DNA from: Escherichia phage HMD-P3
DNA: 64,000 nt
Reading direction: 5' to 3' (one strand)
Sequence record: PQ462667.1
Made by a program: the position numbers and the translations under genes. A model generated the notes under the pieces. The model did no database searches, was not told the DNA's origin, and was given only the letters and a program-made list of their open reading frames with translations. Shown here in pieces: positions 1-31,165 of this stretch; position 1 is the first letter of the stretch; each line of letters begins with the position of its first letter.

Positions 1-1
1 C

Positions 2-223
2 GTCGTTTTTGATAGCTTTTACAGCTTTCGCCGCTTTTGGTTTTGCTGGTTTATTTGCTTCTAACCAATCACAAATCGCGGTCGAGTGTTTCGTTGTATC
101 GTAGACCGCTTTTGATATATCGTCGCAGACTTCCAGCTTAGTAGCGCGCAGACGTTTACCGTAGAAATTAAAATCAGCGGCCAGCTTCAGGATAACGGTT
201 TGTTTTTCTGCGGAAAAAATCAT
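2..223 (-). CDS. hypothetical protein, partial (ORF runs off the window start)
   Basis: Minus-strand ORF with ATG at 221-223 and no stop down to position 2; upstream GGAG-type leader (ccctttaatggagtttta) shared with the next three genes. Confidence 0.4.
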   Translation of the reverse strand, partial: MIFSAEKQTVILKLAADFNFYGKRLRATKLEVCDDISKAVYDTTKHSTAICDWLEANKPAKPKAAKAVKAIKND

Positions 224-319
224 GATAATAAAACTCCATTAAAGGGATTAAAAAACGTTTGTTATTGGCAATATTGCCAAATATAACGCCTCGAATAATA
301 GGCGTTATAATTTGCAACA

Positions 320-532
320 TTAATTTAAAGGCATCAGGCTAGAACTAACACCACAAACAACGGCGGCAATAAAACAAATCAGACCTAAACGCTTTGCCAG
401 CCTAGATTTACGTTTAAAATAATACGAATCTAAATCATTTTGAAAATATGCGAACAATAGCGAGGCCGCCATAATAAATAAGCCTAGAATCAATGATTCA
501 GTAGGATAAAAGATCATTTTTAAAAACTCCAA
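320..532 (-). CDS. small membrane protein (two hydrophobic segments)
   Basis: 70-aa ORF with hydrophobic stretches; same conserved GGAG leader upstream. Confidence 0.5.
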   Translation of the reverse strand: MEFLKMIFYPTESLILGLFIMAASLLFAYFQNDLDSYYFKRKSRLAKRLGLICFIAAVVCGVSSSLMPLN

Positions 533-575
533 TTAAAGGGAAATTATAGTGGGGAATAATCCCCACTAGTTAAAT

Positions 576-983
576 TTATTCACCTGCGGCCTGTTTTACC
601 TCATCGGCAACGCCTAACAACTGCGCCACGGCGTCCAGCGTTTCCAGCTTCGCGCTTTCAAGGCTTGCCAGATCATCGGCGTCCTTGATAATGCCGGAAT
701 CGATAGCGTGCTTTGCAATTACTCGTACATAGTGAGCTTTACGGATTGAGCTGCCGCCGCCTACTTTGCGTGGCTTGTCGCTTTTTTGATATGCTTTCGC
801 GCTGGTCAATTTCGAACGAACTGACACGGGAGAAGTCGCGCCAACTGCTTTCGCGATCTCTTTCAGGCCGTCGCTATTTGCGAATTCTAAACCGTTTTCG
901 TTGATTAACTGCTGATACATGGTAACAGCCTGCTGAGTGTTTTCTTCGTTCCAGGAAAATTTTGCGGTTTTTGCGTTGGTCAT
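576..983 (-). CDS. hypothetical protein
   Basis: 135-aa ORF; conserved leader ttaattggagtttatacc directly upstream of the ATG. Confidence 0.55.
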   Translation of the reverse strand: MTNAKTAKFSWNEENTQQAVTMYQQLINENGLEFANSDGLKEIAKAVGATSPVSVRSKLTSAKAYQKSDKPRKVGGGSSIRKAHYVRVIAKHAIDSGIIKDADDLASLESAKLETLDAVAQLLGVADEVKQAAGE

Positions 984-1084
984 GGTATAAACTCCAATTA
1001 ATTTAATTTAAGGGATTAAATGATTAACATAATGTTAATCGTTATATGCCCCGAACTACTGGGGCATATAAAGTTAACACTAAT

Positions 1085-1336
1085 TTATAATACAGCTTCC
1101 CATTTTTCGTTGCGTTGAACAACCTTTACAACGTCGCCAGACTTTACGCGAACGTTATAAATCGGCTTGCCGTTGTTACTGCGCTCATTTTCAGCGTATA
1201 CCGCGTCAATTGTATCGAACGGCATGAGCGCCGCGCCTTTAATACGTTCGGCTTTTCCGGTTAATTCGTCCGTTTTAGTAACGAAAGGAATAAAAACGGA
1301 TTGACCAATTTTAGGCGCGGTAATAACGTTTTTCAT
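1085..1336 (-). CDS. hypothetical protein
   Basis: 83-aa ORF; same leader motif upstream. Confidence 0.5.
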   Translation of the reverse strand: MKNVITAPKIGQSVFIPFVTKTDELTGKAERIKGAALMPFDTIDAVYAENERSNNGKPIYNVRVKSGDVVKVVQRNEKWEAVL

Positions 1337-1370
1337 GGTATAAACTCCAAGTTATTTGTGGATTGTTCCG

Positions 1371-1400
1371 CATTATCTGCTAGAAAATACTAGCAGATAA
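1371..1400. promoter_or_regulatory. perfect 12-bp inverted repeat with 6-nt spacer (operator-like palindrome)
   Basis: attatctgctag-aaaata-ctagcagataat, about 35 nt upstream of the 1085..1336 start; no T-run, so not a typical terminator. Confidence 0.4.
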
Positions 1401-2159
1401 TAAGAAAAAATCCGCTCGCCATTATAAAATCAATTTAAGGAACTCCACGCGGGCCGCTATATCCCAGTTAGGGGGCGGGGCACATTATGGTAAGTACCGA
1501 CCGTCAAATTGTATCAAGTTATCGCTCTTATCGAACTGGGCACATCTTAAAGCCTATCGGCTAGATTGTCAAATAGTTTTTTCGTTTTCTTTTAAGTTAG
1601 GATTTTCCCAACTGAATAACATTTCGCAAAATATTTTCCCATCTTTATGATGGTACGCTATTTCGCTTCCGTGGTTCGCGCAAAAACTGATCACCGCTTC
1701 AGCTTGTTCTACCGTGATATTGTTAGCCGTTTCTTTGATTTTCATATCGTCGATTCCTTATAATGAATAAGTTTACCGCCGATAGGCTTTAAGATATACC
1801 CAATTTTTTTAAAGAGCGCAGCGGTAAACTTCCCGCCGTGTAGTTCGTCATTGCCGCCCTACGAGATAAATAATAACAAACAACGAAAAAGGCGCAACCT
1901 TATATTTGTAAAGAAATGTAAAGACAAACACCACCGGACACCGTGCGGCGACCTGGGCGCGGCGCGTTAAAATTAAAAGAAACGGGCGCGCGAATACCAC
2001 AAAATAGGGCAGATAAGCAAGTAATTTTTTCATTTATATTTGCTTTGCCCTACTTGACAAAATCTAAAAAGCTCGTGGCAGCGATAAACGGCCTATCCCT
2101 TTATGATTGGATGGCCAAAAACTTTATTGCGTTCTAGGGCGTTTTAGGCGCATTCTAGC

Positions 2160-2640
2160 CTTGTTGATAACTTATCCCCAAAAGCAAAAATGAAATTTTC
2201 CTATTTATCCACTTGACTTTTATTTTCCAGTGGATAACTACTTATTTTATAAAATTAATTAATTGACTTTTATTTGTTAGTATGCATCGGAAAGATAGCA
2301 GACTAATAATTGCTGGGATGATAATCATGCTGGTGGATTGTAACGGCTTAAACTATTAGCAGACTATTAATCACGGAAAATCTCATTAGCCAACTAACTA
2401 TTTCATGATATATAATATACTTATAAATTAATGAGAAATAATAACTATAAGAAATCATCACCAATATAATAACTATAAGAAATCATCACCATTATAATAA
2501 TAACGATAAGAAACTATCGGCCTAAGTGAGAACCACTATCATTTAAGTTATCCACAACGTTATCCACAGCACAAAATAATTTGACACGATAGGCGGCGAT
2601 ATGAGGGCTTTTACACAGACTTATCCACAGGTTATCCTAC
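2160..2640. promoter_or_regulatory. cluster of DnaA-box-like 9-mers
   Basis: Three perfect TTATCCACA at about 2548, 2560 and 2621 plus 1-mismatch variants near 2163, 2173, 2205 and 2231; region is ORF-free. Confidence 0.55.
2438..2517. repeat. iteron-like tandem direct repeat (28-bp period, about 2.8 copies)
   Basis: ataataactataagaaatcatcacca at about 2438 and 2466, degenerate third copy about 2494-2517. Confidence 0.6.
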
Positions 2641-2922
2641 TGTATAAATATACAGGGTAAAAAGGCAGTGTTAACGACTGCAATCAATTTTAAGCGGCCT
2701 AAAACGCTTTCTAACGAGCTAAACGATGCGGGGTAATATTAAAGTAAAGCCGCGACACGGCGCCCTGGTGGCTTCGCCGTGTTTTGCTCGTTATTACACC
2801 GCTGCGCGGTTATCATAAAATTAGGCGTTAGGCAAGGAAAATAAAAAGGTAAATTAATCTTTGCCTATGCTAGAAAATTACCGTTATCATTCACTCACCA
2901 ATTAACGAGGGAGGCCGAACAA

Positions 2923-3900
2923 ATGAGGCTTTATAAACCTGATAATGCCACCGTTTTAAAAGGTGCGCTGCGTAACCTGCTGGATGGTAGCAGAACAACC
3001 AGCATTAAGCACTTTGTTAACAAGGCCGAAGATATTCACCAAAATTTTTTTGATGATTTCGACGCCTATGATATGAGTAGTTTTTTGCAACTATATAAGC
3101 AAGGGGCAACGCTTGTTTTATATAATCGGGATAATCACCTGCTCACTAGTCGGGGGCCGGATACTGATTTCATAATCGTAAAAGGCAACACAGTAAAAGC
3201 CTATGATACTGGGGCGGGCTTAGAAGTTTTCACAATAGTAAACTATGAGGCTAATGATAATGATCTTTATGACGTAGAAAATTTTCTTGATTCATTTTGG
3301 CGTTATTTATCAGTTGGCTGGAATCGGTCAATTGGTGACGGGTATCGTCTGGCGGCTGTAATGGCCTTTGATGATGATGGCAATTTTTTGCTACCGTCGG
3401 AAATATACCCCTACATATATGATGGAGATATAGAAAGCGCGGGCTTTTCTTTCTGGAAGGAGAAAGATCAGCCCATTGACAACACGGAAAAACATGCTGT
3501 AAATTCTAGCACTCAAACTACTGAAAACAAAGGAAAAAATGCCATGACCAAGATCTCTAATATCGTTGCCGCCAATAAGTCTGCCGTTGTAAACGCTGCA
3601 AAACTGGAAGCGGGTAAAATTGCACTAACTCAAATCACGAAAGTAGCGGCTAAAAAAGCACCGTTCATGATCAAAGGTTATATCGATACGCCGATTGGTC
3701 GTGTAGTGATCGCTAACCTGCTGAGTGTAGCGGTTGACCAGTACGCCCCGAGTAACCAGAAAGCGAAAGCGGTAGCGGGGGCGGCTATGGAAGCGGCAAT
3801 GTTAGAAATGGTGCAAAGTTTTAACATCGCTGAGATGATCGATGAAATGGTAAAAGGTATCGATATTTCTACTTTTACCGTTAACACCGAAAACGAGTAA
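2923..3900 (+). CDS. hypothetical protein (325 aa)
   Basis: Long ORF with strong SD (gagggagg) 7 nt upstream; followed by a hairpin and T-run. Confidence 0.7.
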   Translation: MRLYKPDNATVLKGALRNLLDGSRTTSIKHFVNKAEDIHQNFFDDFDAYDMSSFLQLYKQGATLVLYNRDNHLLTSRGPDTDFIIVKGNTVKAYDTGAGLEVFTIVNYEANDNDLYDVENFLDSFWRYLSVGWNRSIGDGYRLAAVMAFDDDGNFLLPSEIYPYIYDGDIESAGFSFWKEKDQPIDNTEKHAVNSSTQTTENKGKNAMTKISNIVAANKSAVVNAAKLEAGKIALTQITKVAAKKAPFMIKGYIDTPIGRVVIANLLSVAVDQYAPSNQKAKAVAGAAMEAAMLEMVQSFNIAEMIDEMVKGIDISTFTVNTENE

Positions 3901-3928
3901 TAACTAGCCTATTGTAAAGTTTTGTAAA

Positions 3929-3954
3929 GGTCGCCTTTTATGGTGGCCTTTTTT
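3929..3954 (+). terminator. rho-independent terminator candidate
   Basis: ggtcgcc-ttttat-ggtggcc stem (with G-U pairs) followed by tttttt; a TATAAT hexamer follows at about 3957. Confidence 0.5.
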
Positions 3955-4018
3955 GCTATAATGCCTTTACACCGTTTGAGGACGGTTGAAAATTTTCCCA
4001 AAAATTTGGAGGCTTAAA

Positions 4019-4249
4019 ATGGTTGCTTTTTCTTCTTCTGACGCTCTTTTCACTGGTAAAGGCTGGGTATCAAATCGCTGGATTATTCAAGAAATGGTGC
4101 AAGAATACGGCATCGCTAAAACTTATAATACCATTCAGGCGCTTTATGATAATGATCAAATCGATCAGCAAACGGCGGGCTTTTTACTGGATACCCTGAA
4201 GGCGGAACACTGTACCAAAAAACAAGCCGCTAAAATTGTTTTAATGTAA
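4019..4249 (+). CDS. hypothetical protein (start moved to the ATG behind GGAGG)
   Basis: In-frame ATG at 4019 preceded by ggaggcttaaa; the track start at 3986 is a TTG without an RBS. Confidence 0.55.
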   Translation: MVAFSSSDALFTGKGWVSNRWIIQEMVQEYGIAKTYNTIQALYDNDQIDQQTAGFLLDTLKAEHCTKKQAAKIVLM

Positions 4250-4297
4250 TTAATAACGGGGCGTTACTTTCGCCCCACTAACTAGGGAGTATTACAA

Positions 4298-4480
4298 ATG
4301 ATTATTTTTCGGGCTATTCTGGCGGGTATCTTGGGCGCTATTTTGACCCTTTTCGCCACCGCTTATGGTATTCAAGATTCTTATTGTGGTTTGGTAAACA
4401 CAAAACCTATGGTTATTATTGGCGCGGGCGTCGCTGTATTTTCTTATCTGCTGGGCTGCATGACTAGTAAAGGAGAATAA
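4298..4480 (+). CDS. small membrane protein
   Basis: 60 aa, two hydrophobic segments; RBS ctagggag. Confidence 0.55.
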   Translation: MIIFRAILAGILGAILTLFATAYGIQDSYCGLVNTKPMVIIGAGVAVFSYLLGCMTSKGE

Positions 4481-4482
4481 AA

Positions 4483-4695
4483 ATGATCCGCAACGTTTCT
4501 CTTGCACGTTCGAAAGGCTTTAAGCTGGTGGACGCTAACACGTTCGAGCGTCCAGATTGTAAAATCGAATATGTAGCACGTAATAAAAATGCCTTTCGTG
4601 TTACCGAGAAAAAATTTGATAAGCGCGGCAACGTGATCATTGAAACGGTTAGGCACTTTGCCACCTTTTACGCTGCGTTTCGTGGGGTACTATGA
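4483..4695 (+). CDS. hypothetical protein
   Basis: RBS aaaggagaa; tightly packed with neighbours. Confidence 0.55.
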   Translation: MIRNVSLARSKGFKLVDANTFERPDCKIEYVARNKNAFRVTEKKFDKRGNVIIETVRHFATFYAAFRGVL

Positions 4696-4823
4696 AAAGC
4701 GTTATTGTTGTTCTCCTTGCAATGGCTGGCGGTTTTATCGCCACCTTATTTAAGAATGATCCCATTTCGTTGGGTATCTTTATGCTTTTATCTGGATACC
4801 TGATCGGGAGGATATGCAAATGA
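4692..4823 (+). CDS. small membrane protein (43 aa, below the ORF-track cutoff)
   Basis: ATGA overlap with the upstream stop; hydrophobic product MKSVIVVLLAMAGGFIATLF; hand translation. Confidence 0.4.
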   Translation: MKSVIVVLLAMAGGFIATLFKNDPISLGIFMLLSGYLIGRICK

Positions 4824-5164
4824 TCATTTACGAGGGCAATCGTTTTGTTGCTAATTGCCGCCCGGCATTGTTAGCAAACTATTTGAACCAGCTTTCGCCA
4901 GCTTATAAGGGCGTTATTAATATTTACGAGGGAAAGGCGCATTATAAAATCAATGCGGTCGTTGCCCGTGAACTAGCGTTTCAATTTTTAACCTTTGCAT
5001 CTTGCGACGTTCAGGTTATGGGTGAGGCATTAATTGCAGAAAATGAGGATGATTTTATTAATATTTTTCGCAAGGTATGCACCGAGCGCCTGATAATGAA
5101 AGGCGCATATATTCAATCCACGGCTGATAGTATTGAAACAGCGTTTCGAAAGGTGGCGCAATGA
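4814..5164 (+). CDS. hypothetical protein
   Basis: 116-aa ORF; gggagg RBS. Confidence 0.55.
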   Translation: MQMIIYEGNRFVANCRPALLANYLNQLSPAYKGVINIYEGKAHYKINAVVARELAFQFLTFASCDVQVMGEALIAENEDDFINIFRKVCTERLIMKGAYIQSTADSIETAFRKVAQ

Positions 5165-5376
5165 ATGAAATTACTTGGAATATGTTGCTGAAGGTTAAAC
5201 GGGTAAAATTAACACAGGATTTATGGGGAGTAGGTAAAACAGGGGATGTATTCACTGTGTTTAAAGACGCTCATCATAGGTTTATAAGAAGGAATAACAA
5301 TACCGGTACAGCGTTTTATTTAATTGATTTAATCAAATTACACGGTGAGGATATTTTCAAACTAGAATATGAGTAA
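5161..5376 (+). CDS. hypothetical protein
   Basis: ATGA start/stop overlap with the upstream gene. Confidence 0.5.
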   Translation: MNEITWNMLLKVKRVKLTQDLWGVGKTGDVFTVFKDAHHRFIRRNNNTGTAFYLIDLIKLHGEDIFKLEYE

Positions 5377-5431
5377 CTATATAATTTTGGCGTATTGCAA
5401 TGAGATAGCCAACTAATAACGGGGCGTTATT

Positions 5432-5626
5432 ATGAGCAATAAAATTATTGTAACCAAAACCAGTACAATGGTTGATATTTTTTACGTGCCCGATACGCCG
5501 GAAAACCGACAAGCGGTTGAGCGTGGGGAATATGATAAAGTGATTTATGATCACGATGGTTATTATCAGTATTTAGTGGATTCCTACGGGGAGGAGGAAA
5601 AAATCACGCATCGACTACCAGACTAA
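5432..5626 (+). CDS. hypothetical protein
   Basis: 64-aa ORF preceded by the taataacggggcg element also seen at about 4250. Confidence 0.5.
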   Translation: MSNKIIVTKTSTMVDIFYVPDTPENRQAVERGEYDKVIYDHDGYYQYLVDSYGEEEKITHRLPD

Positions 5627-5665
5627 TAATCATGGGGCGCAACTATCTGGGAGTGCCCCCAATTT

Positions 5666-5690
5666 TCAAATGAGAATGATTCTCATTTGA
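5666..5690. repeat. perfect 25-bp palindrome tcaaatgagaatgattctcatttga
   Basis: Read directly; founding copy of the AAATGAGAAT repeat family. Confidence 0.8.
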
Positions 5691-5889
5691 CCGCGCCCGC
5701 TATGGTTAGCCTGCTAATGGTTAGGGTGTTACGTGTCGCCTTGTGTGATCGTTAGCGTGCTAACTAATTTTCAAGCCTCCTCCAATTTTGCCCTTGTTTT
5801 AGTATCCCCACCAAAATTAAACGCGTTAGAATGCGATCTAGGACGTTTTAGCGGTATATTAGAACTATTCACTGCGTAGGAATACTGTA

Positions 5890-5995
5890 TATTTATCCAG
5901 TAGGATAAGCTGTGGATAAGTCTGTTGATAACGCTTCAAAATGGCTAGAATTTTGTCAAGTCAAATCGTGCTGTTGATAAGTCTGGGGATAACTT
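5890..5995. promoter_or_regulatory. second DnaA-box cluster
   Basis: tgtggataa (perfect, reverse orientation) at about 5921, plus ttatccag, tgttgataa (twice) and ggggataac. Confidence 0.5.
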
Positions 5996-6017
5996 AAATA
6001 ACAGTGTTTCTCACTTC

Positions 6018-6180
6018 CGTTCTTAAATGCGAATCATTATCATTCGCATTCCACTTTTTAAATGAGAATCATTCCACTTTCTAAATGAGATTGATTCTCG
6101 TTTCACTTTCTAAATGCGAATTATTATCATTCTCATTCCGCTTTTTAAATGAGAATGATTCTTATTATCATTCGTATTTA
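6018..6180. repeat. about 6 direct or partly palindromic copies of the ctttttaaatgagaatcatt family
   Basis: Copies at about 6023, 6051, 6073, 6098, 6125 and 6143; ORF-free. Confidence 0.7.
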
Positions 6181-6206
6181 GCGCAGGGCAATTGCCCTGC
6201 GCTTTT
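6181..6206. terminator. GC-rich perfect hairpin (gcgcagggc-aatt-gccctgcgc) followed by TTTT
   Basis: 22-bp palindrome then a T-run; could terminate transcripts from either direction. Confidence 0.55.
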
Positions 6207-6943
6207 GTGCAAATCCGACATTGCTCCACGGGTGTTACGTGCGGGCATGTATGTGCAAATCCGACAATTTTTGGCAGTGTGCAAATCTGACCCGAAAAAT
6301 TTTTATAGTGTGCAAATCCGACAATGAATTTTCCTAAAAACTCCAGCAATCCGATGCTGCGCATCAATCCTGTGGAATTAACTAGAATATGTGCAAATCC
6401 GACATGGGTTTATTTGTGCGAATCCGACAAGATTTTTATGACTTCGATGAGAGGGTGTGTGATTGTGTGAGTTTAGGGAGAAGATGAGAGAGTGAGAGAA
6501 AATTAGGGGAACTACGGAAGGGGCGCATGTTTGGTGCAGGGCACCAGATTTGCGGGGATTTTGGGGAAGAGTTGAGAAGATTTGAGTTAATTTGAGATTA
6601 GTGGAGATAAAGTAAAATTTTATTAGCAAAATGGGGCAAAATAACTTGACAAGTGAAAATTTCTGTGGCTCTAAAAACTCAGGCAATCATGGGCCTTCGG
6701 CCCGAAATAATGCTGCTATTTTCAGGAGATTATGTGTTCCTAAAAACTTAGGTAATTGTGCAAATCCGACCATAAATTTCTAGAAACACAATGTGCAAAT
6801 CCGACAGTAATTTCTGGAAATGTGTTTTCAAAAAATGTCTCCTAGAAATAACCGCCCTCCCCATAACCGCCCTGTATAGGAAAACCGGCCTAGGATATTT
6901 ATAGTAGATGAAAAACTGCCCTAGAACATGTGCAAATCCGATT
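6206..6943 (+). repeat. nine same-orientation copies of the 15-mer TGTGCAAATCCGACA
   Basis: Copies at about 6206, 6252, 6278, 6309, 6390, 6415, 6757, 6792 and 6929 (four with one or two substitutions); irregular spacing. Confidence 0.8.
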
Positions 6944-7351
6944 TAAAGTTCAGTGTAAACCCTAGAGTTAGTGTTCAACTATTCCTAGAAACTTAGGAGT
7001 CTAGAAGAAAGTGTTGTGCCATCCTAGCAGATGAGCGGCAACAGGTGTATCATCTTAAACACAGATATTGCCTTTAAATATTTTTTAGTTATTTAAAAGT
7101 AAATATACCCCCATTTCATGAGAGTTAGCCCCTCTAGGCGCGTGCGATTTGATACATCCTCCTAAGTCTCGGTGTGGAAGAACAATTGACGAGAACCTGC
7201 GAGCAGAACCGTCATCAAGTGTTTTCCTACGAGGAATGATGTAAATCTACGGCCTAGAGGTAAAAACAAGTTGATGTTTTTAATCTATGAGATTATTATA
7301 ACACATTATTCTCACGAATGTCAAGCAGATTTCGTTATTTTTAAATTTTCG

Positions 7352-8189
7352 TCATGAGTTTGGAGTTGGGTAAACTTTTATACAACCTTGACTTAATAGA
7401 TACTCTTCTGCCTCTACAGCTTTAATGTTGAATATCTCTTTTGCTCCATCGAATTTATAATGGTTAGCAAATTTATTTTCGAAAAATTTATGTGCTTGAT
7501 GTTCTATTCTGTAAGCGAGTTCTTTCGATCCTTTTAATGATACGGCGACCACCGAGATCTACACCTGAGGAAACACTCTTTCCCTACACGACGCTCTTCC
7601 GATCTTGATGTTCTATTCTGTAAGCGAGTTCTTTCGATCCTTTCTTATATTGGTAGATACCAAATACTTCCATATCTTCGAAACCCGGCACACGCAATTT
7701 ATCATACTCTAGATTCTTAAACCTTTGATGTGGCTCTCTAGAGACTCCAATCTTTGTCTTTAATTTTTTCCTAGACTGATCTTTATTAGAGAAGATATAG
7801 AGATATGTGGGAAATTGAACATCTTCATCTACTTCTGGCTTCTCGACAGGTGTATTAAGGTTGCTTTCTCTAGCACACTGTAAACAGCCGTGCCCATCTA
7901 GGTGGGATCTAGCAGTTTGCATAAAGTATCCTTTATGCTTATAGCACCATATCTCTACTAACTGATTGGCTGTCTTATAATTAACTTTTTCATACCCATA
8001 TTCTTCTTTCTGGACTTTTAAAGCTTTCCTAATAAAGATAAGGTTTAAGGCCTCTTGTTGGAAGTCAGGGTGAAGTTGCCTAATCTTCGTTATATTAGTA
8101 GAGCCATTTGACTTCAAAAAGTTTTTAAGAGGAAACCTCCGGGCTTCCTCTCGTAGCTTTTTATTAATTTCAGTACGTAAATCATCCAT
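7352..8189 (-). CDS. HNH-like (Cys/His-rich) homing-endonuclease-family protein, reading frame broken by the adapter artefact
   Basis: Track ORFs 7352..7552 and 7584..8189 share the duplicated peptide KGSKELAYRIEHQ; paralog of 10216..10659; motif CYKHKGYF...TARSHLDGHGCLQC. Confidence 0.6.
7536..7605 (+). other. Illumina P5/TruSeq adapter with 8-nt index CTGAGGAA (sequencing artefact)
   Basis: Exact AATGATACGGCGACCACCGAGATCTACAC-CTGAGGAA-ACACTCTTTCCCTACACGACGCTCTTCCGATCT; flanked by a direct duplication of about 40 bp (7494-7535 and 7606-7645). Confidence 0.95.
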
Positions 8190-8907
8190 CTTTATTAACC
8201 TTCAGAATAACCCCTTTTGACGCCATGAAAAGGAATGTTGCTAGGTAAGATGACTCGGAATTTAGCGCAGAATAATCTACACTTCCCCTAGGTCTAGTTT
8301 CTTGTTTAGTGTCAAGAATTGTTGATATATCAAACTTAACAGACTTAGCAACTTTTCTAGCTTGTTCAGGATCACGTAAAACTTCAAAGTGAGCAGCATC
8401 TAGAATAGGGTTAGATGTTGTTGAGTCATCAACTATACTTAGATGAACCTGCGCAAGTGTAGATACGATTCCTAGCTTTAATTCAGATAGAGAAGAATAA
8501 GGTGGTTCTACTTTCTTTGTAAGCCTAGGGAGATGATCGTATTTACATTGCTTTTGAGGAATCATCAAAATGTTAGGATAACATTCTAGACATGACTTTG
8601 CATTTCCTTCTTTAAAATACGGTAGTTCTTTATCTGCAAAGACGTGGAATGAGTCTGCTGAAAATCCTTTAATAGTAGGATCAACAGTTTGAATCAGACG
8701 ACGTAAACTAATATAAGAAGGTGCTAGAGTAACTTCTCCTGCATCTTTATTATATTTAGGTTGTCCACTAGCATTAATATATGCAGGATAAAACTCTGCA
8801 CAAAATGCTACTGCATGTGCCTCTAACTCATTAAGCTGAGAAACACATTTCCCATTACAAGCTCTAGCTAACTTAATAATCTCTGCTAAATTCTTTTTAA
8901 TACTCAT
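8182..8907 (-). CDS. hypothetical protein (241 aa)
   Basis: Long AT-rich ORF, start/stop overlap with neighbours. Confidence 0.6.
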   Translation of the reverse strand: MSIKKNLAEIIKLARACNGKCVSQLNELEAHAVAFCAEFYPAYINASGQPKYNKDAGEVTLAPSYISLRRLIQTVDPTIKGFSADSFHVFADKELPYFKEGNAKSCLECYPNILMIPQKQCKYDHLPRLTKKVEPPYSSLSELKLGIVSTLAQVHLSIVDDSTTSNPILDAAHFEVLRDPEQARKVAKSVKFDISTILDTKQETRPRGSVDYSALNSESSYLATFLFMASKGVILKVNKDG

Positions 8908-9527
8908 TAACTACCTCTCTTGTCCTCATTAATAGCAGCTCCCAACGCCTCCATAATAGCATCCTCTAAACTTCCATGTTTACTAGGATTATTAAAATGA
9001 ATAGTACAAACAGAACTCCTAGAAACTCCAGCATCCGCAGGTGCTACGCTTCGCATATCAGATTCAAAAGCTTCTTGAGTATGTTTTAACTGCACAGAAG
9101 GGCCGTAATCTTCCGCAAATTTATATGACTGCGTACTACTTACCACACCCCCACAAGGAACATTGTGCATATCTGACATTAATCTTTTATCGGAGTTATT
9201 CAGCATTGAGATTGTCCCTGACTGCCACGGATCTCTAATAGTCACTGGAGTACTAGGGCGGTTCACCTCAGTCTTCACAAGTTTGTACCCTGCATCGATT
9301 AATGCGTTAATTAGATTATCAGCCGGGATGCGAGCCTTGCCAAAAATCTCACGAGCGTTGTTGAGCCTGCCTTCAAAACCTTTACATGCTCTAATATTAG
9401 TGTGTGCAAAGGTTAGCTTCATAGATTTGAATTGTACAGTAGCAGTTAAATCTTTAAAGCTATAATCCCATGTATTCAGTTCATGGTCTGGTACTACTTG
9501 AATAGGTTGTTGTACATTAAAAGTCAT
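8907..9527 (-). CDS. hypothetical protein (206 aa)
   Basis: Long ORF, translationally coupled to neighbours. Confidence 0.6.
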   Translation of the reverse strand: MTFNVQQPIQVVPDHELNTWDYSFKDLTATVQFKSMKLTFAHTNIRACKGFEGRLNNAREIFGKARIPADNLINALIDAGYKLVKTEVNRPSTPVTIRDPWQSGTISMLNNSDKRLMSDMHNVPCGGVVSSTQSYKFAEDYGPSVQLKHTQEAFESDMRSVAPADAGVSRSSVCTIHFNNPSKHGSLEDAIMEALGAAINEDKRGS

Positions 9528-9712
9528 TATTTATTCTCCAGTTTGTCTAACAGTTTATGGGCTGCGATGTTATATTGTTTAAGTTCACGATTAAGGATTT
9601 GGTTCTCACTCTTTAGCTCTAGATTCTTATTATTAAGAATACTGCAGATTAGTAGAAGTGCTAGTATTAGTAACAGAGAACCTACGAGCATTAAAAGAAA
9701 AAGAGTTTCCAT
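9527..9712 (-). CDS. small membrane protein with coiled-coil tail
   Basis: N-terminal hydrophobic helix LLMLVGSLLLILALLLI. Confidence 0.5.
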   Translation of the reverse strand: METLFLLMLVGSLLLILALLLICSILNNKNLELKSENQILNRELKQYNIAAHKLLDKLENK

Positions 9713-24756: not shown

Positions 24757-24832
24757 TGGTAGTTAGTAGTGGATTTGAACCACTGTAGTCGCTCCGTATG
24801 AAGGAGGTGCATAACCACTCTGCCAACTAACT
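24757..24832 (-). tRNA. tRNA, anticodon CAT (Met or Ile2)
   Basis: Hand fold: acceptor agttagt/actaact, T-loop ttcaaat, anticodon loop ttCATac, encoded CCA. Confidence 0.6.
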
Positions 24833-24928
24833 ATTATGTTTTATTAGGCTAAGTAAGTATTCTTTATACTCTCTAGTCCAATTAGCTTTTTTAAACTTTC
24901 CTGGACGCATAGTCTTAATTCCTAAATT

Positions 24929-25005
24929 TGGTACTCCGGGAGGGATTTAAACCCCCGATCTCTCGGTTATCAGCCGAGTGCTTTAGATCGCTAAGCTACC
25001 GAAGC
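24929..25005 (-). tRNA. tRNA-Ile (GAT)
   Basis: Anticodon arm ctcgg-ctGATaa-ccgag; T-arm and CCA present. Confidence 0.7.
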
Positions 25006-25006
25006 A

Positions 25007-25234
25007 TTAACATTTCACAGCAGAACGTTTGCCATTTCTAGGTGCACCTGGAAGTCGTGCACGTTCTGCCATTCTTCGCTTAATCTTTGAGATATTTTCT
25101 AGTGTTTGTTCTTCAGGCTTAATACCTGAAACACTACACCACTGATTACCATCCCATGCGGTAATGATCATAACACCATTACCCATAATCTTTTCTGTGA
25201 AAGTAATTCTCATTATAGCAACTCGTCTAAGCAA
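25007..25234 (-). CDS. hypothetical protein
   Basis: 75-aa ORF. Confidence 0.45.
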   Translation of the reverse strand: MLRRVAIMRITFTEKIMGNGVMIITAWDGNQWCSVSGIKPEEQTLENISKIKRRMAERARLPGAPRNGKRSAVKC

Positions 25235-25506
25235 GAGGTATATTTAAGTTTACCATCTTTATCTACTTTGATTTCGACTTCCGCTCGTGGTACTTGACGA
25301 ACTACACCATGAATCATCTTATAGCGAATGCCTTTAGCTGGTTCACGATCTTTTGGAAATACTTGCTTAACCGTTACTACTTTATACCCTTCACGCGGTG
25401 TTAACACTACTACTTGATCACCTTCTTTGATCTTCCAAGAGCTAGGAAATTCATAGGTATAGCGTTGACCACCAGTTTGGAACACAACAGAAAGATAACG
25501 TTTCAT
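25213..25506 (-). CDS. hypothetical protein
   Basis: 97-aa ORF with promoter/leader module upstream. Confidence 0.5.
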   Translation of the reverse strand: MKRYLSVVFQTGGQRYTYEFPSSWKIKEGDQVVVLTPREGYKVVTVKQVFPKDREPAKGIRYKMIHGVVRQVPRAEVEIKVDKDGKLKYTSCLDELL

Positions 25507-25573
25507 TTGGTTTCCCTCTCATTAATTTATATAAATATTATAACAATAAATAAGAGAGAAAGCAAATGAATTT

Positions 25574-25741
25574 TTAATAAAGTTTAGTCACTTCATAAAC
25601 TATACTACGAGATTCTTTATTACGTTGTATTAAATTAGCATATGCTTCTTCAGCTTCATTTTTAGTATTAAAGTCTATAACGTGAGAGGTATTAGCTCTG
25701 TTTGATTGGCTATACCAGATAACTACTAGGAGTTTAAACAT
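25574..25741 (-). CDS. hypothetical small protein
   Basis: Start moved to an internal Met to avoid overlap with the tRNA 3' end. Confidence 0.35.
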   Translation of the reverse strand: MFKLLVVIWYSQSNRANTSHVIDFNTKNEAEEAYANLIQRNKESRSIVYEVTKLY

Positions 25742-25755
25742 ACTAATCCTTAAAT

Positions 25756-25842
25756 TGGTGCTGGGCACAGGATTCGAACCTGCAACGGGATTACTCCTCC
25801 TGATTACAAATCAGGTGCATTCAACCATTCTGCCAACCCAGC
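25756..25842 (-). tRNA. tRNA with long variable arm, anticodon ambiguous (loop UUUGUAA)
   Basis: Acceptor gctgggt/gcccagc, T-arm gcagg-ttcgaat-cctgt, 15-nt variable arm; UGU by standard numbering, GUA if shifted. Confidence 0.6.
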
Positions 25843-26007
25843 AGAACCCGTTATTTCAACGGGATTTCTTTTTCAATAACAGAAGACTTATCAGTCATAA
25901 CTGTCATTGCCATTTGTTGTAGAAATTCAAAGGTGAAGGCTACACGTTCTTCACCAATCTCTACTTCTACACGTTTCTTTTGTTTATCGATCTTAACTTT
26001 TAGGTTA

Positions 26008-26229
26008 TCAGCCATCTTCTGGTTCTCGTTGCTGCACTACTTCTAGCCAGTCTGGTAGAAGAAACTTTGTACGAAATTCTTCGTAAGTTTCTTTGGGATA
26101 AAAGCTAAAACCTCCTTTCTCGTCATTCAGGATAACAGAGCCGTCAGTCTGTTCGTATGCTCGGTATGTTTCTCCAATAACAATAACTCGTTTATCGGTA
26201 CTTTTATTACGAAATTCAAAAACGTGCAT
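26008..26229 (-). CDS. hypothetical protein
   Basis: 73-aa ORF. Confidence 0.45.
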   Translation of the reverse strand: MHVFEFRNKSTDKRVIVIGETYRAYEQTDGSVILNDEKGGFSFYPKETYEEFRTKFLLPDWLEVVQQREPEDG

Positions 26230-26246
26230 AATGTTTCCTTAAAAAT

Positions 26247-26321
26247 TGGTGCGGGATACGAGAGTCGAACTCGTGTCTACTGGTTGGAAGCCAGTTATTC
26301 TAGCCACTGAACTAATCACGC
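26247..26321 (-). tRNA. tRNA-Gly (TCC)
   Basis: Anticodon arm actgg-ctTCCaa-ccagt; T-arm acgag-ttcgact-ctcgt; CCA. Confidence 0.65.
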
Positions 26322-26327
26322 GTAAAT

Positions 26328-26402
26328 TGGCAGGAAAGTAGGGATTCGAACCCTAACTAAGAGATTCAAAATCTCCAGTGCTAACCATTACACTACTTTC
26401 CA
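26328..26402 (-). tRNA. tRNA-Gln (TTG)
   Basis: Anticodon loop ttTTGaa; 3' end ...GCCA as in E. coli tRNA-Gln. Confidence 0.6.
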
Positions 26403-26408
26403 ATTGTT

Positions 26409-26484
26409 TGGCTGGGATGCCACGGATCGAACGTGGAACCTTCGATGTCAGAAATCGACGATCTGCCAATTGATCTACACCCCA
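26409..26484 (-). tRNA. tRNA-Gln (CTG)
   Basis: Acceptor tggggtg, anticodon arm tcgat-ttCTGac-atcga, T-arm ccacg-ttcgatc-cgtgg, 3' AGCCA. Confidence 0.65.
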
Positions 26485-26500
26485 ATAATTTCATCTCATT

Positions 26501-26695
26501 CTACGGAAAAATTGTTGTTGGCTCAGATTCTTCCAAACGTTTGCCTTCATGATCTACTCGAATAACTCCGCATCCTTCGCAAATCACAACAGCACCGTAG
26601 CCTTCTTTAACTTCTGCTTCTGTAATCAAACCAGAAAGATCACCAGTATCTTTACCCCACATATCAATGGAGCATTGTTTGCAGAAATCAGCCAT
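26501..26695 (-). CDS. zinc-ribbon protein
   Basis: CKQC...CEGC. Confidence 0.45.
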   Translation of the reverse strand: MADFCKQCSIDMWGKDTGDLSGLITEAEVKEGYGAVVICEGCGVIRVDHEGKRLEESEPTTIFP

Positions 26696-26720
26696 ATTTT
26701 ATTTCCTATTTAAGTTAATT

Positions 26721-26797
26721 TGGGGTGGCTAGTGGAATTCGAATCCACATAGGCCTGATTCACAATCAGGATCATTAACCAATTATGATATAGCCAC
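26721..26797 (-). tRNA. tRNA-His (GTG)
   Basis: Anticodon arm cctga-ttGTGaa-tcagg; discriminator C. Confidence 0.65.
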
Positions 26798-27165
26798 AAT
26801 TGAAAACTCGCAGGGTTAGCGAAACCTCCCTCAATTAGCATGTTCTAGAATACTAATCAAGTTATCTCCTATTGCACGCAGCTCAAGACGAGTACGAATT
26901 TTCAATTGTGGCGGCTCTCCGAAACTCTTCTACTCTAGCCTTAGCAGCTTACTCCCGAACGCATGTCGGGGAAGTCTTACTAAGAGCATCAAATAGCACC
27001 GTTACACTTTGAGCCATAGATATATCAAGAAGTAGAAGGACTTGAACCTTCACGAGATAGACCATTTATCTCAGCCGCTTTATGAGGTATGTTGTAGGGA
27101 GTGGATGTTCCCTATAAACCTTTTAGGCAGCCCCGTCTACCGATTCCGGCATACTTCAAGAACTT

Positions 27166-27348
27166 TTATAAACCAGCAGAAGCCTCATTTAAAGCATCAA
27201 CAATAGCCTGTTGTTGCGTCCATCCTCTACCAGTAGAATTAACATGTGGAAGATATACTTCCCAATAACCGTCCTCTAGTAAGGTTATTTGTGCACTAAA
27301 CTCTGTGCCATCAGTTAGTGTAACCTTCACAGTTTTTGTTAAAGACAT
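27166..27348 (-). CDS. hypothetical protein
   Basis: 60-aa ORF. Confidence 0.4.
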   Translation of the reverse strand: MSLTKTVKVTLTDGTEFSAQITLLEDGYWEVYLPHVNSTGRGWTQQQAIVDALNEASAGL

Positions 27349-27364
27349 ATATTATCCTATAAGT

Positions 27365-27454
27365 TGGCAGAAGATAATGGAGTCGAACCATCACCGTATC
27401 GCTACAGCGGGCTGGTTTTCAAGACCAGTTACGTACCACTACGTCCTATCTTCT
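27365..27454 (-). tRNA. tRNA-Ser (TGA)
   Basis: Long variable arm; anticodon arm ctggt-ctTGAaa-accag; discriminator G. Confidence 0.7.
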
Positions 27455-27467
27455 AGTATTTATTGTA

Positions 27468-27815
27468 CTAATAGTCACTCGTACTAGTGAAGTTTTCTAC
27501 TTTTCCACAAATTTTACAAGTCCTACGATGGTAGTAGGTAATTTTTACTTTAGACCAGCCATCGTGATCATTACCTAGGTTTTCTGTTACTCCCCAAGTA
27601 TGAGAACACTCATTTTCAATTTGCTTAGTAAGAGCGTTATAGCGAGTATAAAACTCCTCCTGAGCAATAGCAAATTCTTTCTGTAGTTTATCACGAGCAA
27701 TAATAGCACGTTCCAGATATGTTAAATCAGGCATTCCAGCTTTTTCAGCAGCATCTATAATCTTATCTTCATCTAAAGATGCTAAAAACTCTAGAGCTTT
27801 ATCTTTTGCTAGCAT
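27468..27815 (-). CDS. zinc-finger-containing protein
   Basis: CSHTWG...CKICGKV. Confidence 0.5.
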   Translation of the reverse strand: MLAKDKALEFLASLDEDKIIDAAEKAGMPDLTYLERAIIARDKLQKEFAIAQEEFYTRYNALTKQIENECSHTWGVTENLGNDHDGWSKVKITYYHRRTCKICGKVENFTSTSDY

Positions 27816-27834
27816 TATTATTACCTCAAATGTT

Positions 27835-27925
27835 TGGCGGAAGAGGAGAGATTTGAACTCTCAAGCCGTTTTACCAGTCAGCCACTTTCCAAGCGGTTTT
27901 CGTCGCCAATTCGATTTGCTCTTCC
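27835..27925 (-). tRNA. tRNA-Ser (GGA)
   Basis: Long variable arm; anticodon loop ttGGAaa; 3' GCCA. Confidence 0.6.
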
Positions 27926-28037
27926 AATAATAAGATGATGCCTCTATCACGCCAGGCAGTTACGCCTCGCTGGGATTCGAACCCATTAAAACAGCTCAAC
28001 CGAGATAGTAGGTTTAATTTACTCTGACCATCAAATT

Positions 28038-28120
28038 TGGTGCTTGCGGAGGGACTCGAACCCACACGAATTAACACGAACTCCTAAGGATCGCGCGTCT
28101 ACCAATTACGCCACGCAAGC
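28038..28120 (-). tRNA. tRNA-Leu (TAG)
   Basis: 5' gcttgcgtggcgtaattggtagac resembles E. coli tRNA-Leu; anticodon loop ctTAGga. Confidence 0.6.
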
Positions 28121-28606
28121 AATTATTTCTTCAAGTGGAGCATGAACCCACTCATTATTTCTAGATGAAAAAGAACTTAGGATTTCTTTTTCTTTGAGTT
28201 CATAATTATCTACTAGTTTATAATACTCTAATACATAGTCCCGAAAAGGGGAGTATGTTTGATAGGTATTTAATCTAGTCTCAGCATCTTTGGCTGCTCC
28301 TACTTTAAACCAGCCTGGAAAAGCTGGATTAGATATTATATAAATATATCCCAGCTTATTATTTATATTATTGATATAACAGTAAAGCTGTACTACTCTT
28401 AGGGATCTTTGATAGCTATGCTCTAGTCTCTTTTGGTATGTATTTGACTTCTTATCCTTACTAGGATTGGCCTTTCTAACTATATACCCATTATACCATA
28501 GAGCTATTTGCATGTAATTACTAGCGGTTACGTCTAGTTTGTTATTGTGGAGGAATATTTCTAACTCATTTAAGTTATCTTTTCTCCCATTTTTAGCTAT
28601 CTTCAT
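28106..28606 (-). CDS. T5orf172/GIY-YIG-like domain protein (homing-endonuclease-like)
   Basis: GYIYIISNPAFPGWFKVGAA...YQTYSPFRDY; paralog of 31392..31937. Confidence 0.65.
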   Translation of the reverse strand: MKIAKNGRKDNLNELEIFLHNNKLDVTASNYMQIALWYNGYIVRKANPSKDKKSNTYQKRLEHSYQRSLRVVQLYCYINNINNKLGYIYIISNPAFPGWFKVGAAKDAETRLNTYQTYSPFRDYVLEYYKLVDNYELKEKEILSSFSSRNNEWVHAPLEEIIACVA

Positions 28607-28624
28607 ACTACATACCCTTTAATT

Positions 28625-28700
28625 TGGTGGACAGTAGGAGAGTCGAACTCCTCACTCCTGAGTGCAAGTCAGGTATTTTCCCCAGATAAACTAACCGCCC
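28625..28700 (-). tRNA. tRNA-Ala (TGC)
   Basis: G3-U70 pair in the acceptor stem; anticodon arm cctga-ctTGCac-tcagg. Confidence 0.7.
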
Positions 28701-28985
28701 AAACTCTTTAGTTTACTAAGGCTATTAGCTCGGCGTAACTACAGCACCTTCGCTTCAAGCGGAAGGAACCGCGTCATCTCGCAAACCCGATACACTATTC
28801 AGTTGCCGCTGAATCTAGTGGACTAATCTAGAACTTCTCCCGAATCATAGGGATCGTGCTTTTTGGCAGCCAGTCCTAGGTCGAGCTAATACCTTAGTGA
28901 ACTATGATGAGGATTTCTCCTCATCAATTTATATAAATATTATAACAAGAAATTAAGCATCAAGCAACTGCATTTTTCTTGAAAT

Positions 28986-29064
28986 TGGTGGGTCGCCTGG
29001 GACTCGAACCCAGAACCTTCCGATTAAAAGTCGGATGCTACTAAACCTATTGAGCTAGCAACCC
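28986..29064 (-). tRNA. tRNA-Lys (TTT)
   Basis: Anticodon arm tccga-ctTTTaa-tcgga; T-arm ctggg-ttcgagt-cccag. Confidence 0.7.
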
Positions 29065-29073
29065 AAAATAACT

Positions 29074-29151
29074 TGGTAGCGGGTTCCAGTACTGCCCTGG
29101 ACTTACTTAGCTTATGAGACTAAGAAGAACTCTATGCCTCCCACCCGCAAT
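29074..29151 (-). tRNA. tRNA-like element, anticodon CAT, with non-canonical T-loop (GGCAGUA) and unpaired 1:72
   Basis: Anticodon arm ttagt-ctCATaa-gctaa, D-stem gagg/cttc, T-stem tccag/ctgga, CCA encoded. Confidence 0.35.
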
Positions 29152-29155
29152 TGTT

Positions 29156-29231
29156 TGGTCAGTGCGGCAGGACTCGAACCTGCGACCCGAAGCATCCAAG
29201 GCTCCCACGCTACCAACTGCGCTACGCACTG
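29156..29231 (-). tRNA. tRNA-Pro (TGG)
   Basis: 76 nt; anticodon loop ctTGGat; T-arm gcagg-ttcgagt-cctgc. Confidence 0.7.
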
Positions 29232-29240
29232 TTAATTCTT

Positions 29241-29438
29241 TTATTGTGGAGGAATATTAATAATTCGTCCATCTACACAATAAACGGTACTAGGAATCGT
29301 ACTATATATGTAGAAATTCTTTATATTACTCTCTCCGCCACAGAAATTTTTAGCAAATTCATACTCTTTATTAATGGTTGAGTCAAATTTAAAACAACCA
29401 GTAAGTAGGAATACAGATAGTAATAAAACTTTCTTCAT
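29241..29438 (-). CDS. small lipoprotein
   Basis: MKKVLLLSVFLLTGC (signal peptide with lipobox). Confidence 0.5.
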   Translation of the reverse strand: MKKVLLLSVFLLTGCFKFDSTINKEYEFAKNFCGGESNIKNFYIYSTIPSTVYCVDGRIINIPPQ

Positions 29439-29891
29439 TTAGCTTTCCTTCTCTTCACTTTATAAGATATATTATACAGAGAATTAAGCAGAATAGCAAA
29501 TGAATTTTTAATAAATTTACTTATTGTGTAGGCCACCTGGAGGCTACCAACCCCACGGCTGACAAAGAAGTTTGCGAGACCTCTCTTAAATGCCAGAATA
29601 GACCCGCCGATCTATCGGAACCTACATAATAAGTAAACTTTATAGTGTCATTCTAGACAGGACTCGAACCTGTTATCACTTGTGCGGACTTACGAGAACC
29701 ATTCTTTCACTCGAATCGAACGAGCTTCTGCCCTCGCCAAGCTGGTTTCCCCATCAACCACGCTAGAATGTTTGATTATTTTCAGTGCAAGAGTCCGAGT
29801 CTTGGACACGACCGCTTCGCAAGTACATAGGCAGCTTATCATGAGTCAGCACTTCCGAATTGCTAGCCCCGTGTTCTGCACTGAAATTTTG

Positions 29892-31163: not shown

Positions 31164-31165
31164 AT

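What the first reader, a model, noticed from the sequence alone, without database searches (positions are those of the whole stretch)
7494..7645. Illumina adapter plus 40-bp duplication embedded in the assembly, splitting an endonuclease gene
Positions 7536-7605 are an exact P5/TruSeq universal adapter (AATGATACGGCGACCACCGAGATCTACAC, 8-nt index CTGAGGAA, ACACTCTTTCCCTACACGACGCTCTTCCGATCT). The same 40-bp genomic segment sits on both sides (about 7494-7535 and 7606-7645). The two flanking track ORFs (7352..7552 and 7584..8189) both contain KGSKELAYRIEHQ and their junction residues are translated from adapter. Removing about 110 bp restores one HNH-like gene of roughly 243 aa. This is a technical artefact, not biology, but it corrupts the annotation.
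Basis: partly seen in the sequence, partly recalled or inferred. Interest (0 to 1): 0.7.

Follow-up and report, generated by a model that had tools for sequence, protein, structure and literature searches.

The report
Sequencing adapter left inside phage assembly
A 70-base synthetic Illumina adapter and a 40-base repeated stretch of genome were left inside this T5-like phage assembly, splitting one endonuclease gene into two false ones; it is a laboratory and software artefact, not biology.

Summary
Window 7536-7605 is an exact full-length TruSeq/P5 universal adapter: a 29-nt P5 part, the 8-nt index CTGAGGAA, and the 33-nt read-1 primer site. It is flanked by an exact 40-nt direct repeat (7495-7534 = 7604-7643; the first 2 nt of the right copy are also the last 2 nt of the adapter), and there is one stray T at 7535. 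Deleting 109 bp restores a single 242-aa ORF that is 97-98% identical to the intact 729-nt gene of close relatives (Salmonella phage SE11, Escherichia phages PNJ1902 and DaisyDussoix), none of which has the insert. The same adapter occurs in 24 unrelated phage GenBank records, many at record ends. In 8 of 8 records inspected a run of T precedes it, which is the mark of reads running into the flow-cell spacer and explains the stray T. The likeliest origin is a contig that began with an adapter read-through and overlapped its own other end by about 40 nt, whose ends were later joined or rotated without trimming. Two corrections: the gene is a T5orf172/GIY-YIG-type endonuclease, not HNH, and the excess is 109 bp and the protein 242 aa, not 110 bp and 243 aa. 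The break is not at a phage terminus, terminal-repeat boundary or T5 nick site. Biological interest is low; the value is for database hygiene.

The parts
7495..7534 (+). Left copy of the duplicated genomic 40-mer (CTTGATGTTCTATTCTGTAAGCGAGTTCTTTCGATCCTTT). It is probably the 3' end of the original contig.
   Evidence: Exact 40/40 match to 7604-7643. Relatives have this sequence only once.
7535..7535 (+). Stray T, neither genome nor adapter. It is probably a remnant of the poly-T run that precedes P5 when reads run through into the flow-cell spacer.
   Evidence: SE11 has C after CCTTT. In 8 of 8 other phage records a run of 3-13 T comes directly before AATGATACGG. A paper on solid-phase amplification describes surface primers built as 10 T plus the P5/P7 sequence (PMC11123353).
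7536..7564 (+). P5 flow-cell binding part of the Illumina universal adapter (29 nt, exact).
   Evidence: Exact match. 100% matches in unrelated phage records, many at record ends.
7565..7572 (+). 8-nt i5 index slot, CTGAGGAA.
   Evidence: It lies between the two constant adapter parts. The other contaminated records differ mainly in this slot.
7573..7605 (+). TruSeq read-1 sequencing-primer site (33 nt, exact). Its last two bases, CT, are identical to the genome.
   Evidence: Exact match.
7604..7643 (+). Right copy of the duplicated 40-mer. The genomic insert of the adapter-bearing fragment starts at 7606 (or 7604) and runs rightwards.
   Evidence: From 7604 onwards the window is collinear with SE11.
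7352..7552 (-). False ORF 1 (66 aa). It is the C-terminal 60 residues of the real endonuclease, with a spurious GTG start and 6 residues read from the adapter and the stray T.
7584..8189 (-). False ORF 2 (201 aa). It is the N-terminal 195 residues of the real endonuclease, with 6 residues and a stop codon read from the adapter.
7352..8189 (-). True gene after removal of 109 bp: 729 nt, 242 aa. It is a free-standing T5orf172/GIY-YIG-type endonuclease, present in some Tequintavirus genomes and absent from others.
   Evidence: Repair gives one ORF that is 97-98% identical to SE11 QEI25639.1 and its homologues in PNJ1902 and DaisyDussoix. Pfam T5orf172 and MUG113. PHROG 4605, 681 and 18411. Absent from Spc35 and Kenya-K38 with collinear flanks.

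Best explanation
This is an assembly artefact. Some library fragments were shorter than the read length, so reads ran through the insert into the P5-side adapter and on into the poly-T spacer of the flow-cell oligo. Untrimmed, such reads gave the assembler a dead-end branch of the form T(n) + 70-nt adapter + genome from 7606 rightwards.

T5-like genomes assemble as a circle because their terminal repeats collapse. The adapter branch was therefore a branching point, and the contig was cut there. The contig started with the adapter branch and, after going round the genome, ended with the same about 40-nt junction word (a typical k-1 overlap for k = 41). The two ends were then joined, or the contig was rotated into T5 orientation. 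The overlap was not recognised because the adapter masked it.

The result is genome-40mer, T, adapter, 40mer-genome: 109 extra bases that shift the frame and split the endonuclease gene into two false ORFs.

Shown: the adapter identity, the duplication, its absence from relatives, gene restoration on removal, and the T-run signature in other records. Inferred: read-through as the source, the graph-vertex origin of the 40-mer, and the joining or rotation step.
For: - Exact 70-nt adapter and exact 40-nt flanking repeat.
- Close relatives have a single copy of the 40-mer, no adapter, and an intact 729-nt CDS.
- Deleting 109 bp restores a 242-aa ORF 97-98% identical to theirs.
- The adapter is complete to its very first base. 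A library molecule ends there, so nothing genomic can be joined to it in a normal read.
- The same adapter is found in 24 unrelated phage records. Of the 13 whose adapter context I inspected, 8 have it at or near a record end. One follows a scaffold gap of Ns (vB_EcoM_01). One lies between two 'tail fiber protein' CDSs with a 25-bp flanking duplication (TAC1), the same architecture as here.
- In 8 of 8 records a T-run precedes AATGATACGG, often with poly-C or poly-G beyond it. This matches the stray T at 7535.
- Surface primers built as 10 T plus P5 are described in PMC11123353.
- The window is in T5/Spc35 orientation and starts about 2.85 kb from the Spc35 left end, consistent with a re-oriented record.
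Against: - No reads are available, so coverage, soft-clipping and the assembler used are unknown.
- The source record was not found in the phage, protein or contig collections, so I could not see where the junction lies in the full record or whether the record was rotated.
- A 40-nt overlap fits k = 41 but is not a default of the commonest phage assembler settings (own knowledge). It could simply be an arbitrary overlap of two contig ends.
- Only one stray T survives, whereas other records keep 3-13. Up to 4 T are possible here if the genome's own TTT is counted.
Confidence: 0.9

Rival explanations
1. The artefact is the same, but it arose from a real chimeric library molecule or PCR template switch (genome fragment joined to the 5' end of a P5 adapter) whose reads the assembler threaded into the consensus. 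On this reading it was not made by joining contig ends.
For: The junction is internal to the window. The stray T (A on the other strand) could also be a non-templated A added by a polymerase (own knowledge).
Against: The 5' end of the P5 strand is unphosphorylated and single-stranded in Y-adapters (own knowledge), so ligation to it is not expected. A chimera does not explain why both flanks are the same 40-mer in register. The T-run before P5 recurs at contig ends and after N gaps in other records, which points to run-off reads and not to chimeras.
Confidence: 0.06
2. The fragment end at 7606 is biological: a physical genome terminus, the terminal-repeat boundary, a T5-type site-specific nick, or a cut by the endonuclease itself. 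Such a site would make adapter-joined ends abundant at that exact position, so the artefact would mark a real DNA end.
For: T5-like virions have fixed termini and site-specific nicks (PMC10644984). The junction lies only about 0.87 kb beyond the mapped inner end of the terminal repeat.
Against: The terminal-repeat inner boundary maps to about window 6650-6675, not 7606 (Spc35 TR 1-9573, K38 DTR 1-9560). The adapter orientation implies a left-hand end with DNA running rightwards, which is the wrong polarity for the right end of the right repeat. The T5 nick consensus R/GCGCRGG (PMC3517423) has its nearest sites at 6180-6203, 1.3 kb away, and none is at the junction. A single read can extend a contig end, so no hot spot is needed.
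Confidence: 0.03
3. The 109 bp are really present in the phage DNA, for example a mobile element with a 40-bp target-site duplication or an engineered insert.
For: Insertions flanked by direct repeats are a hallmark of transposition (own knowledge).
Against: The insert is base-for-base a commercial synthetic oligonucleotide with an index slot. It occurs in unrelated phage records of many hosts, often at record ends. It encodes nothing and has no terminal inverted repeats. None of the 30 best-matching relative records listed spans the adapter (all align in two pieces), and no Tequintavirus record carries the adapter at this locus.
Confidence: 0.01

Closest known systems
Illumina TruSeq-type universal (P5/i5) adapter contamination at contig ends in deposited assemblies
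   Same: The constant parts are identical (29 + 33 nt) with an 8-nt index slot. A T-run precedes it, as in 8 of 8 other phage records. Close relatives lack it.
   Different: Here the adapter is internal (7.5 kb into the window) and flanked by a 40-nt duplication. In most other records inspected it sits within about 150 nt of a record end.
Acinetobacter phage TAC1 (MK170160.1), internal adapter between two 'tail fiber protein' CDSs
   Same: The adapter is internal to the record and lies between two CDSs with the same product name. A direct duplication of genomic sequence (25 bp) flanks it, and a T-run comes before P5.
   Different: TAC1 has Nextera-type adapters as an inverted pair plus junk bases, and a 25-bp repeat where this window has 40 bp. 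I did not verify that its two CDSs are halves of one gene.
Uncollapsed k-mer overlap at the ends of circular contigs from de Bruijn graph assemblers
   Same: A short exact direct repeat of fixed length marks where the two ends of one contig meet. 40 nt equals k-1 for k = 41 (inference).
   Different: The usual overlap is directly adjacent and easily trimmed. Here 71 nt of non-genomic sequence separates the copies and hides the overlap.
T5orf172 (PF10544) / MUG113 GIY-YIG-type free-standing endonucleases of T5-like phages
   Same: The repaired protein scores above the Pfam cutoffs for both families over residues 129-226. It is 97-98% identical to the SE11, PNJ1902 and DaisyDussoix homologues, the SE11 one annotated 'endonuclease'. 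It is present or absent among close relatives, as homing endonuclease genes are.
   Different: In this record the gene is split by the artefact. Catalytic activity and target site are untested.

Membership tests
Illumina TruSeq/P5 universal adapter (synthetic oligonucleotide) | P5 29-mer AATGATACGGCGACCACCGAGATCTACAC present exactly | tested here: met
   7536-7564, exact
Illumina TruSeq/P5 universal adapter (synthetic oligonucleotide) | Read-1 primer site ACACTCTTTCCCTACACGACGCTCTTCCGATCT present exactly, separated from P5 by an 8-nt index | tested here: met
   7573-7605 exact; 8-nt CTGAGGAA at 7565-7572. I could not assign the index to a specific kit.
Illumina TruSeq/P5 universal adapter (synthetic oligonucleotide) | Same sequence occurs in unrelated organisms' records and is absent from close relatives at the same locus | tested here: met
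   24 unrelated phage records carry it. SE11, PNJ1902, DaisyDussoix and the other listed relatives lack it.
Contig-end join / uncollapsed circular overlap | Exact direct repeat of genomic sequence on both sides of the join, single-copy in relatives | tested here: met
   40/40 repeat; single copy in SE11
Contig-end join / uncollapsed circular overlap | Junction coincides with the ends of the original contig; no reads span it | not testable with these tools
   No reads or assembly graph available; source record not found
T5orf172 / MUG113 (GIY-YIG-like) endonuclease | Pfam match above the curated gathering score | tested here: met
   PF10544 27.8 bits (cutoff 20); PF13455 23.4 bits (cutoff 22.3), residues 129-226 of the repaired protein
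   No HNH Pfam family at E <= 1. The only HNH-labelled hit is a weak match to PHROG 559 (E 1.8e-6), far below PHROG 4605 (1.6e-59) and PHROG 681 'endonuclease' (7.4e-23).
Transposable element with target-site duplication | Element-encoded functions or terminal inverted repeats between the direct repeats | tested here: not met
   The 70 nt between the repeats are entirely the synthetic adapter. The repeat scan of 6000-9500 found no inverted-repeat arms at the ends of the 7536-7605 insert.
T5-type site-specific nick | Consensus 5'-R/GCGCRGG-3' at the break (PMC3517423) | tested here: not met
   Nearest sites are at 6180-6187 (+) and 6196-6203 (-); none near 7495-7645
Phage physical terminus / terminal-repeat boundary | Break coincides with the mapped end of the direct terminal repeat | tested here: not met
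   Spc35 TR end 9573 and K38 DTR end 9560 map to about window 6650-6675, about 0.87 kb from the adapter

The most novel reading that the evidence does not exclude
The position of the adapter is not arbitrary. On this reading a preferred double-strand break or fragile site exists inside the mobile T5orf172 endonuclease gene (for example self-targeting or a minor T5 nick converted to an end during library preparation). That would make fragment ends at 7606 abundant enough to be assembled, so the artefact would accidentally report a real DNA end.
Probability: 0.03. Interest if true: 0.35.

Novelty: not a real feature. Interest (0 to 1): 0.07.

Why it matters
It has no biological significance. It matters for data quality in three ways:
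- The record carries 109 non-genomic bases.
- One endonuclease gene is annotated as two false proteins whose ends are translated from an adapter, and such products can seed spurious protein families.
- The genome length and any comparative alignment at this locus are wrong.

The side observation may be useful to curators. A T-run (often with poly-C or poly-G beyond it) directly before AATGATACGG, together with a flanking short duplication, is a simple signature for finding internal adapter joins that end-only screens miss. It was seen in 8 of 8 other phage records inspected.

Tried and rejected
1. Physical terminus or terminal-repeat boundary. I mapped the Spc35 and Kenya-K38 annotated repeats onto the window. 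The boundary falls at about 6650-6675, not at the adapter, and the polarity is wrong.
2. T5 nick site. The consensus RGCGCRGG was searched; the nearest sites are 1.3 kb away.
3. Other adapter remnants in the window (P7, read-2, Nextera), exact and fuzzy. None were found beyond three isolated chance 16-mer matches with 2 mismatches at 49969/49970, 60331, 11757 and 21262.
4. Finding the source record. I tried the exact junction in IMG/VR, exact look-ups of both false ORF products, the repaired protein and the neighbouring 241-aa protein, and a 20-kb search of the phage collection (best 97%). Nothing was found, so I could not see where the junction lies in the full record or show that the false proteins have reached public protein databases.
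5. DaisyDussoix as a reference for termini. It is deposited rotated to start at the terminase with the repeat collapsed, so it was uninformative for termini. My first local BLAST script also failed on file naming.
6. The HNH label. Rejected by Pfam.
7. Assigning the index CTGAGGAA to a kit. Not attempted beyond recognising that it is in the index slot.

Full report
**What is in the sequence.** Reading 7200-8300 and exact string searches show three adjoining parts. Window 7536-7564 is AATGATACGGCGACCACCGAGATCTACAC. Positions 7565-7572 are CTGAGGAA. Positions 7573-7605 are ACACTCTTTCCCTACACGACGCTCTTCCGATCT. Together these 70 nt are the full-length P5-side TruSeq-type universal adapter with an 8-nt i5 index slot (adapter identity from my own knowledge of the Illumina sequences). 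It is the only adapter in the 64 kb. P7, the read-2 primer site and the Nextera sequences are absent, both exactly and with up to 2 mismatches per 16-mer. By my own arithmetic, an exact match of 62 fixed bases has a chance expectation of about 6e-33 in this window.

**The flanking repeat.** On either side lies an exact 40-nt direct repeat, 7495-7534 = 7604-7643. The first two bases of the right copy (CT) are also the last two of the adapter, so the strictly genomic duplication is 38-40 nt. Base 7535 (T) belongs to neither the adapter nor the genome.

**Effect on the ORFs.** The ORF list shows two minus-strand ORFs, 7352..7552 (66 aa) and 7584..8189 (201 aa). Both contain KGSKELAYRIEHQ. The start of the short ORF (MVAVSL) and the tail of the long one (DRKSVV plus stop) are read from adapter bases. 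Deleting 109 bp gives one ORF of 242 aa; 7497-7605 or 7535-7643 give the identical result. Deleting 110 bp breaks the frame.

**Comparison with relatives.** The window is a T5-like phage (Tequintavirus, Demerecviridae). 412 phage records match 6900-8300, and the best 30 all align in two pieces that skip the adapter. In Salmonella phage SE11 (99% identity) the alignment across the junction shows one copy of the 40-mer, no adapter, and C where the window has the stray T. SE11, PNJ1902 and DaisyDussoix each annotate a single 729-nt CDS there. The repaired protein is 97-98% identical to them over its full length, whereas the two false ORFs each align to one part only.

**The adapter in other records.** The adapter alone finds 24 unrelated phage records, including Enterococcus, Klebsiella, Bifidobacterium, Acinetobacter, Listeria, Aeribacillus and Paenibacillus phages. 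They differ mainly in the index slot, and many copies lie within about 150 nt of a record end.

**How it probably arose.** I inspected 13 of those records, and in 8 of them I looked at the bases directly upstream of the adapter's first base. In all 8, a run of 3-13 T immediately precedes AATGATACGG, often with poly-C or poly-G beyond it. Surface-bound amplification primers built as 10 T plus the P5/P7 sequence are described in PMC11123353. That Illumina flow-cell oligos have such a spacer is my own knowledge.

The simplest reading is that reads from inserts shorter than the read length ran through the insert, the adapter and into the spacer. This gives T(n)-adapter-insert on the P5 strand, and the stray T at 7535 is what remains of that run.

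Three internal cases are instructive:
- In vB_EcoM_01 the T-run and adapter follow a scaffold gap of Ns, so this is an adapter-led contig start that was concatenated.
- In Pd_22F they follow poly-G/poly-C junk.
- In Acinetobacter phage TAC1 the adapters lie between two CDSs both called 'tail fiber protein' and are flanked by a 25-bp genomic duplication, the same architecture as here.

Because the adapter here is complete to its first base, where a library molecule ends, the genomic sequence to its left cannot have been joined to it in a normal read. It must have been placed there by joining contig ends.

My inference runs as follows. T5-like genomes assemble as a circle because the terminal repeats collapse. 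The adapter branch was the branching point, so the contig began with T-adapter-genome and, after going round, ended with the same junction word (40 nt = k-1 for k = 41). Later joining, or rotation into T5 orientation, left 40mer-T-adapter-40mer inside the record. The window is indeed in T5/Spc35 orientation and starts about 2.85 kb from the Spc35 left end. The joining step and the value of k are inferred, not shown.

**Biological alternatives tested.**
- Terminal-repeat boundary or physical end. The annotated left repeats of Spc35 (1-9573) and Kenya-K38 (1-9560) map to about window 6650-6675, roughly 0.87 kb before the adapter. The adapter polarity (DNA running rightwards from 7606) is wrong for the right end of the repeat.
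- T5 site-specific nick. The published consensus is 5'-R/GCGCRGG-3' (PMC3517423). The nearest sites are at 6180-6187 and 6196-6203, and none is at the junction.
- Real insertion with target-site duplication. This is excluded because the insert is a synthetic oligonucleotide found in unrelated records and absent from the relatives examined.

**What the gene really is.** The repaired protein matches Pfam T5orf172 (PF10544; 27.8 bits, cutoff 20) and MUG113 (PF13455; 23.4 bits, cutoff 22.3) over residues 129-226. No HNH family appears at E <= 1. In PHROGs it matches 4605 (N-terminal half, unknown function, 1.6e-59), 681 'endonuclease' (7.4e-23) and 18411 'homing endonuclease' (3.3e-10). The HNH-labelled PHROG 559 is only a weak hit. 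So it is a GIY-YIG-type T5orf172 endonuclease, not HNH-like. Spc35 and Kenya-K38 lack window 7338-8183 altogether while both flanks stay collinear. This presence/absence pattern is expected of a free-standing mobile endonuclease gene.

**What could not be done.** The source record was not found. The junction has no exact match in IMG/VR. The false ORF products, the repaired protein and the neighbouring protein are not in the protein or contig collections. The nearest phage record is about 97% identical. I therefore could not see where the junction lies in the whole record, nor show that the false proteins have entered public protein databases. Reads are not available, so coverage and clipping are untested.

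**Verdict.** I put confidence that the feature is non-biological at 0.9 or above, and confidence in the specific contig-end mechanism at about 0.6. It is not a real feature of the phage, so interest is low. Its value is in correcting the record and as a recognisable signature (T-run + P5 + flanking short duplication) for similar hidden joins.

Noticed in passing
window 6005-6941: An ORF-poor stretch of about 1 kb holds dense repeat arrays: five units of about 30 nt (TTTCTAAATGAGAATCATTC-like, 6011-6162) and at least seven copies of TGTGCAAATCCGA(C) (6198-6941), plus several imperfect inverted repeats. It spans the mapped inner end of the terminal repeat (about 6650-6675). It probably corresponds to the T5 injection-stop-signal region (own knowledge, not tested).
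   Followed up: partly
window 3436, 4421, 6180 (+); 6196, 19704, 36233, 53510 (-): The T5 major-nick consensus RGCGCRGG occurs 7 times against 2.1 expected, and 0 of 100 shuffles reach 7. Adding the 2.85 kb offset to the Spc35 left end, the minus-strand sites at 6196, 19704 and 36233 fall at about 9.0, 22.6 and 39.1 kb. These are close to the classic T5 major nicks at 7.9, 18.5 and 32.6% of the genome (percentages from memory). Two sites at 6180-6203 face each other on opposite strands.
   Followed up: partly
window 7338-8183: The whole T5orf172 endonuclease gene is absent from Spc35 and Kenya-K38, with both flanks collinear (Spc35 10235/10242). Only 31 of 412 matching records cover at least 80% of 6900-8300. 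This presence/absence pattern is typical of a mobile free-standing endonuclease gene.
   Followed up: partly
L009 (MK170160.1, 22231-23059), L010 (MZ092003.1), L011 (PP129558.1), L014-L018: Other deposited phage genomes carry Illumina adapters. Some are internal: TAC1 between two 'tail fiber protein' CDSs with a 25-bp flanking duplication; Pd_22F after poly-G/poly-C; vB_EcoM_01 after an N gap. In CHRF_10034 and Escherichia phage 1W, annotated 'hypothetical protein' CDSs overlap the poly-C/T-run run-off sequence and reach into the adapter.
   Followed up: partly
window 24757-37340, minus strand: A cluster of 22 tRNA genes, as is usual for T5-like phages. Nothing anomalous was noted.
   Followed up: no
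window 2524-2655 and 5885-6016: A segment of about 132 nt matches, at 75-80% identity and in inverted orientation, a second site within the terminal-repeat region of Spc35, Kenya-K38 and SE11. This suggests a dispersed inverted repeat inside the terminal repeat.
   Followed up: no
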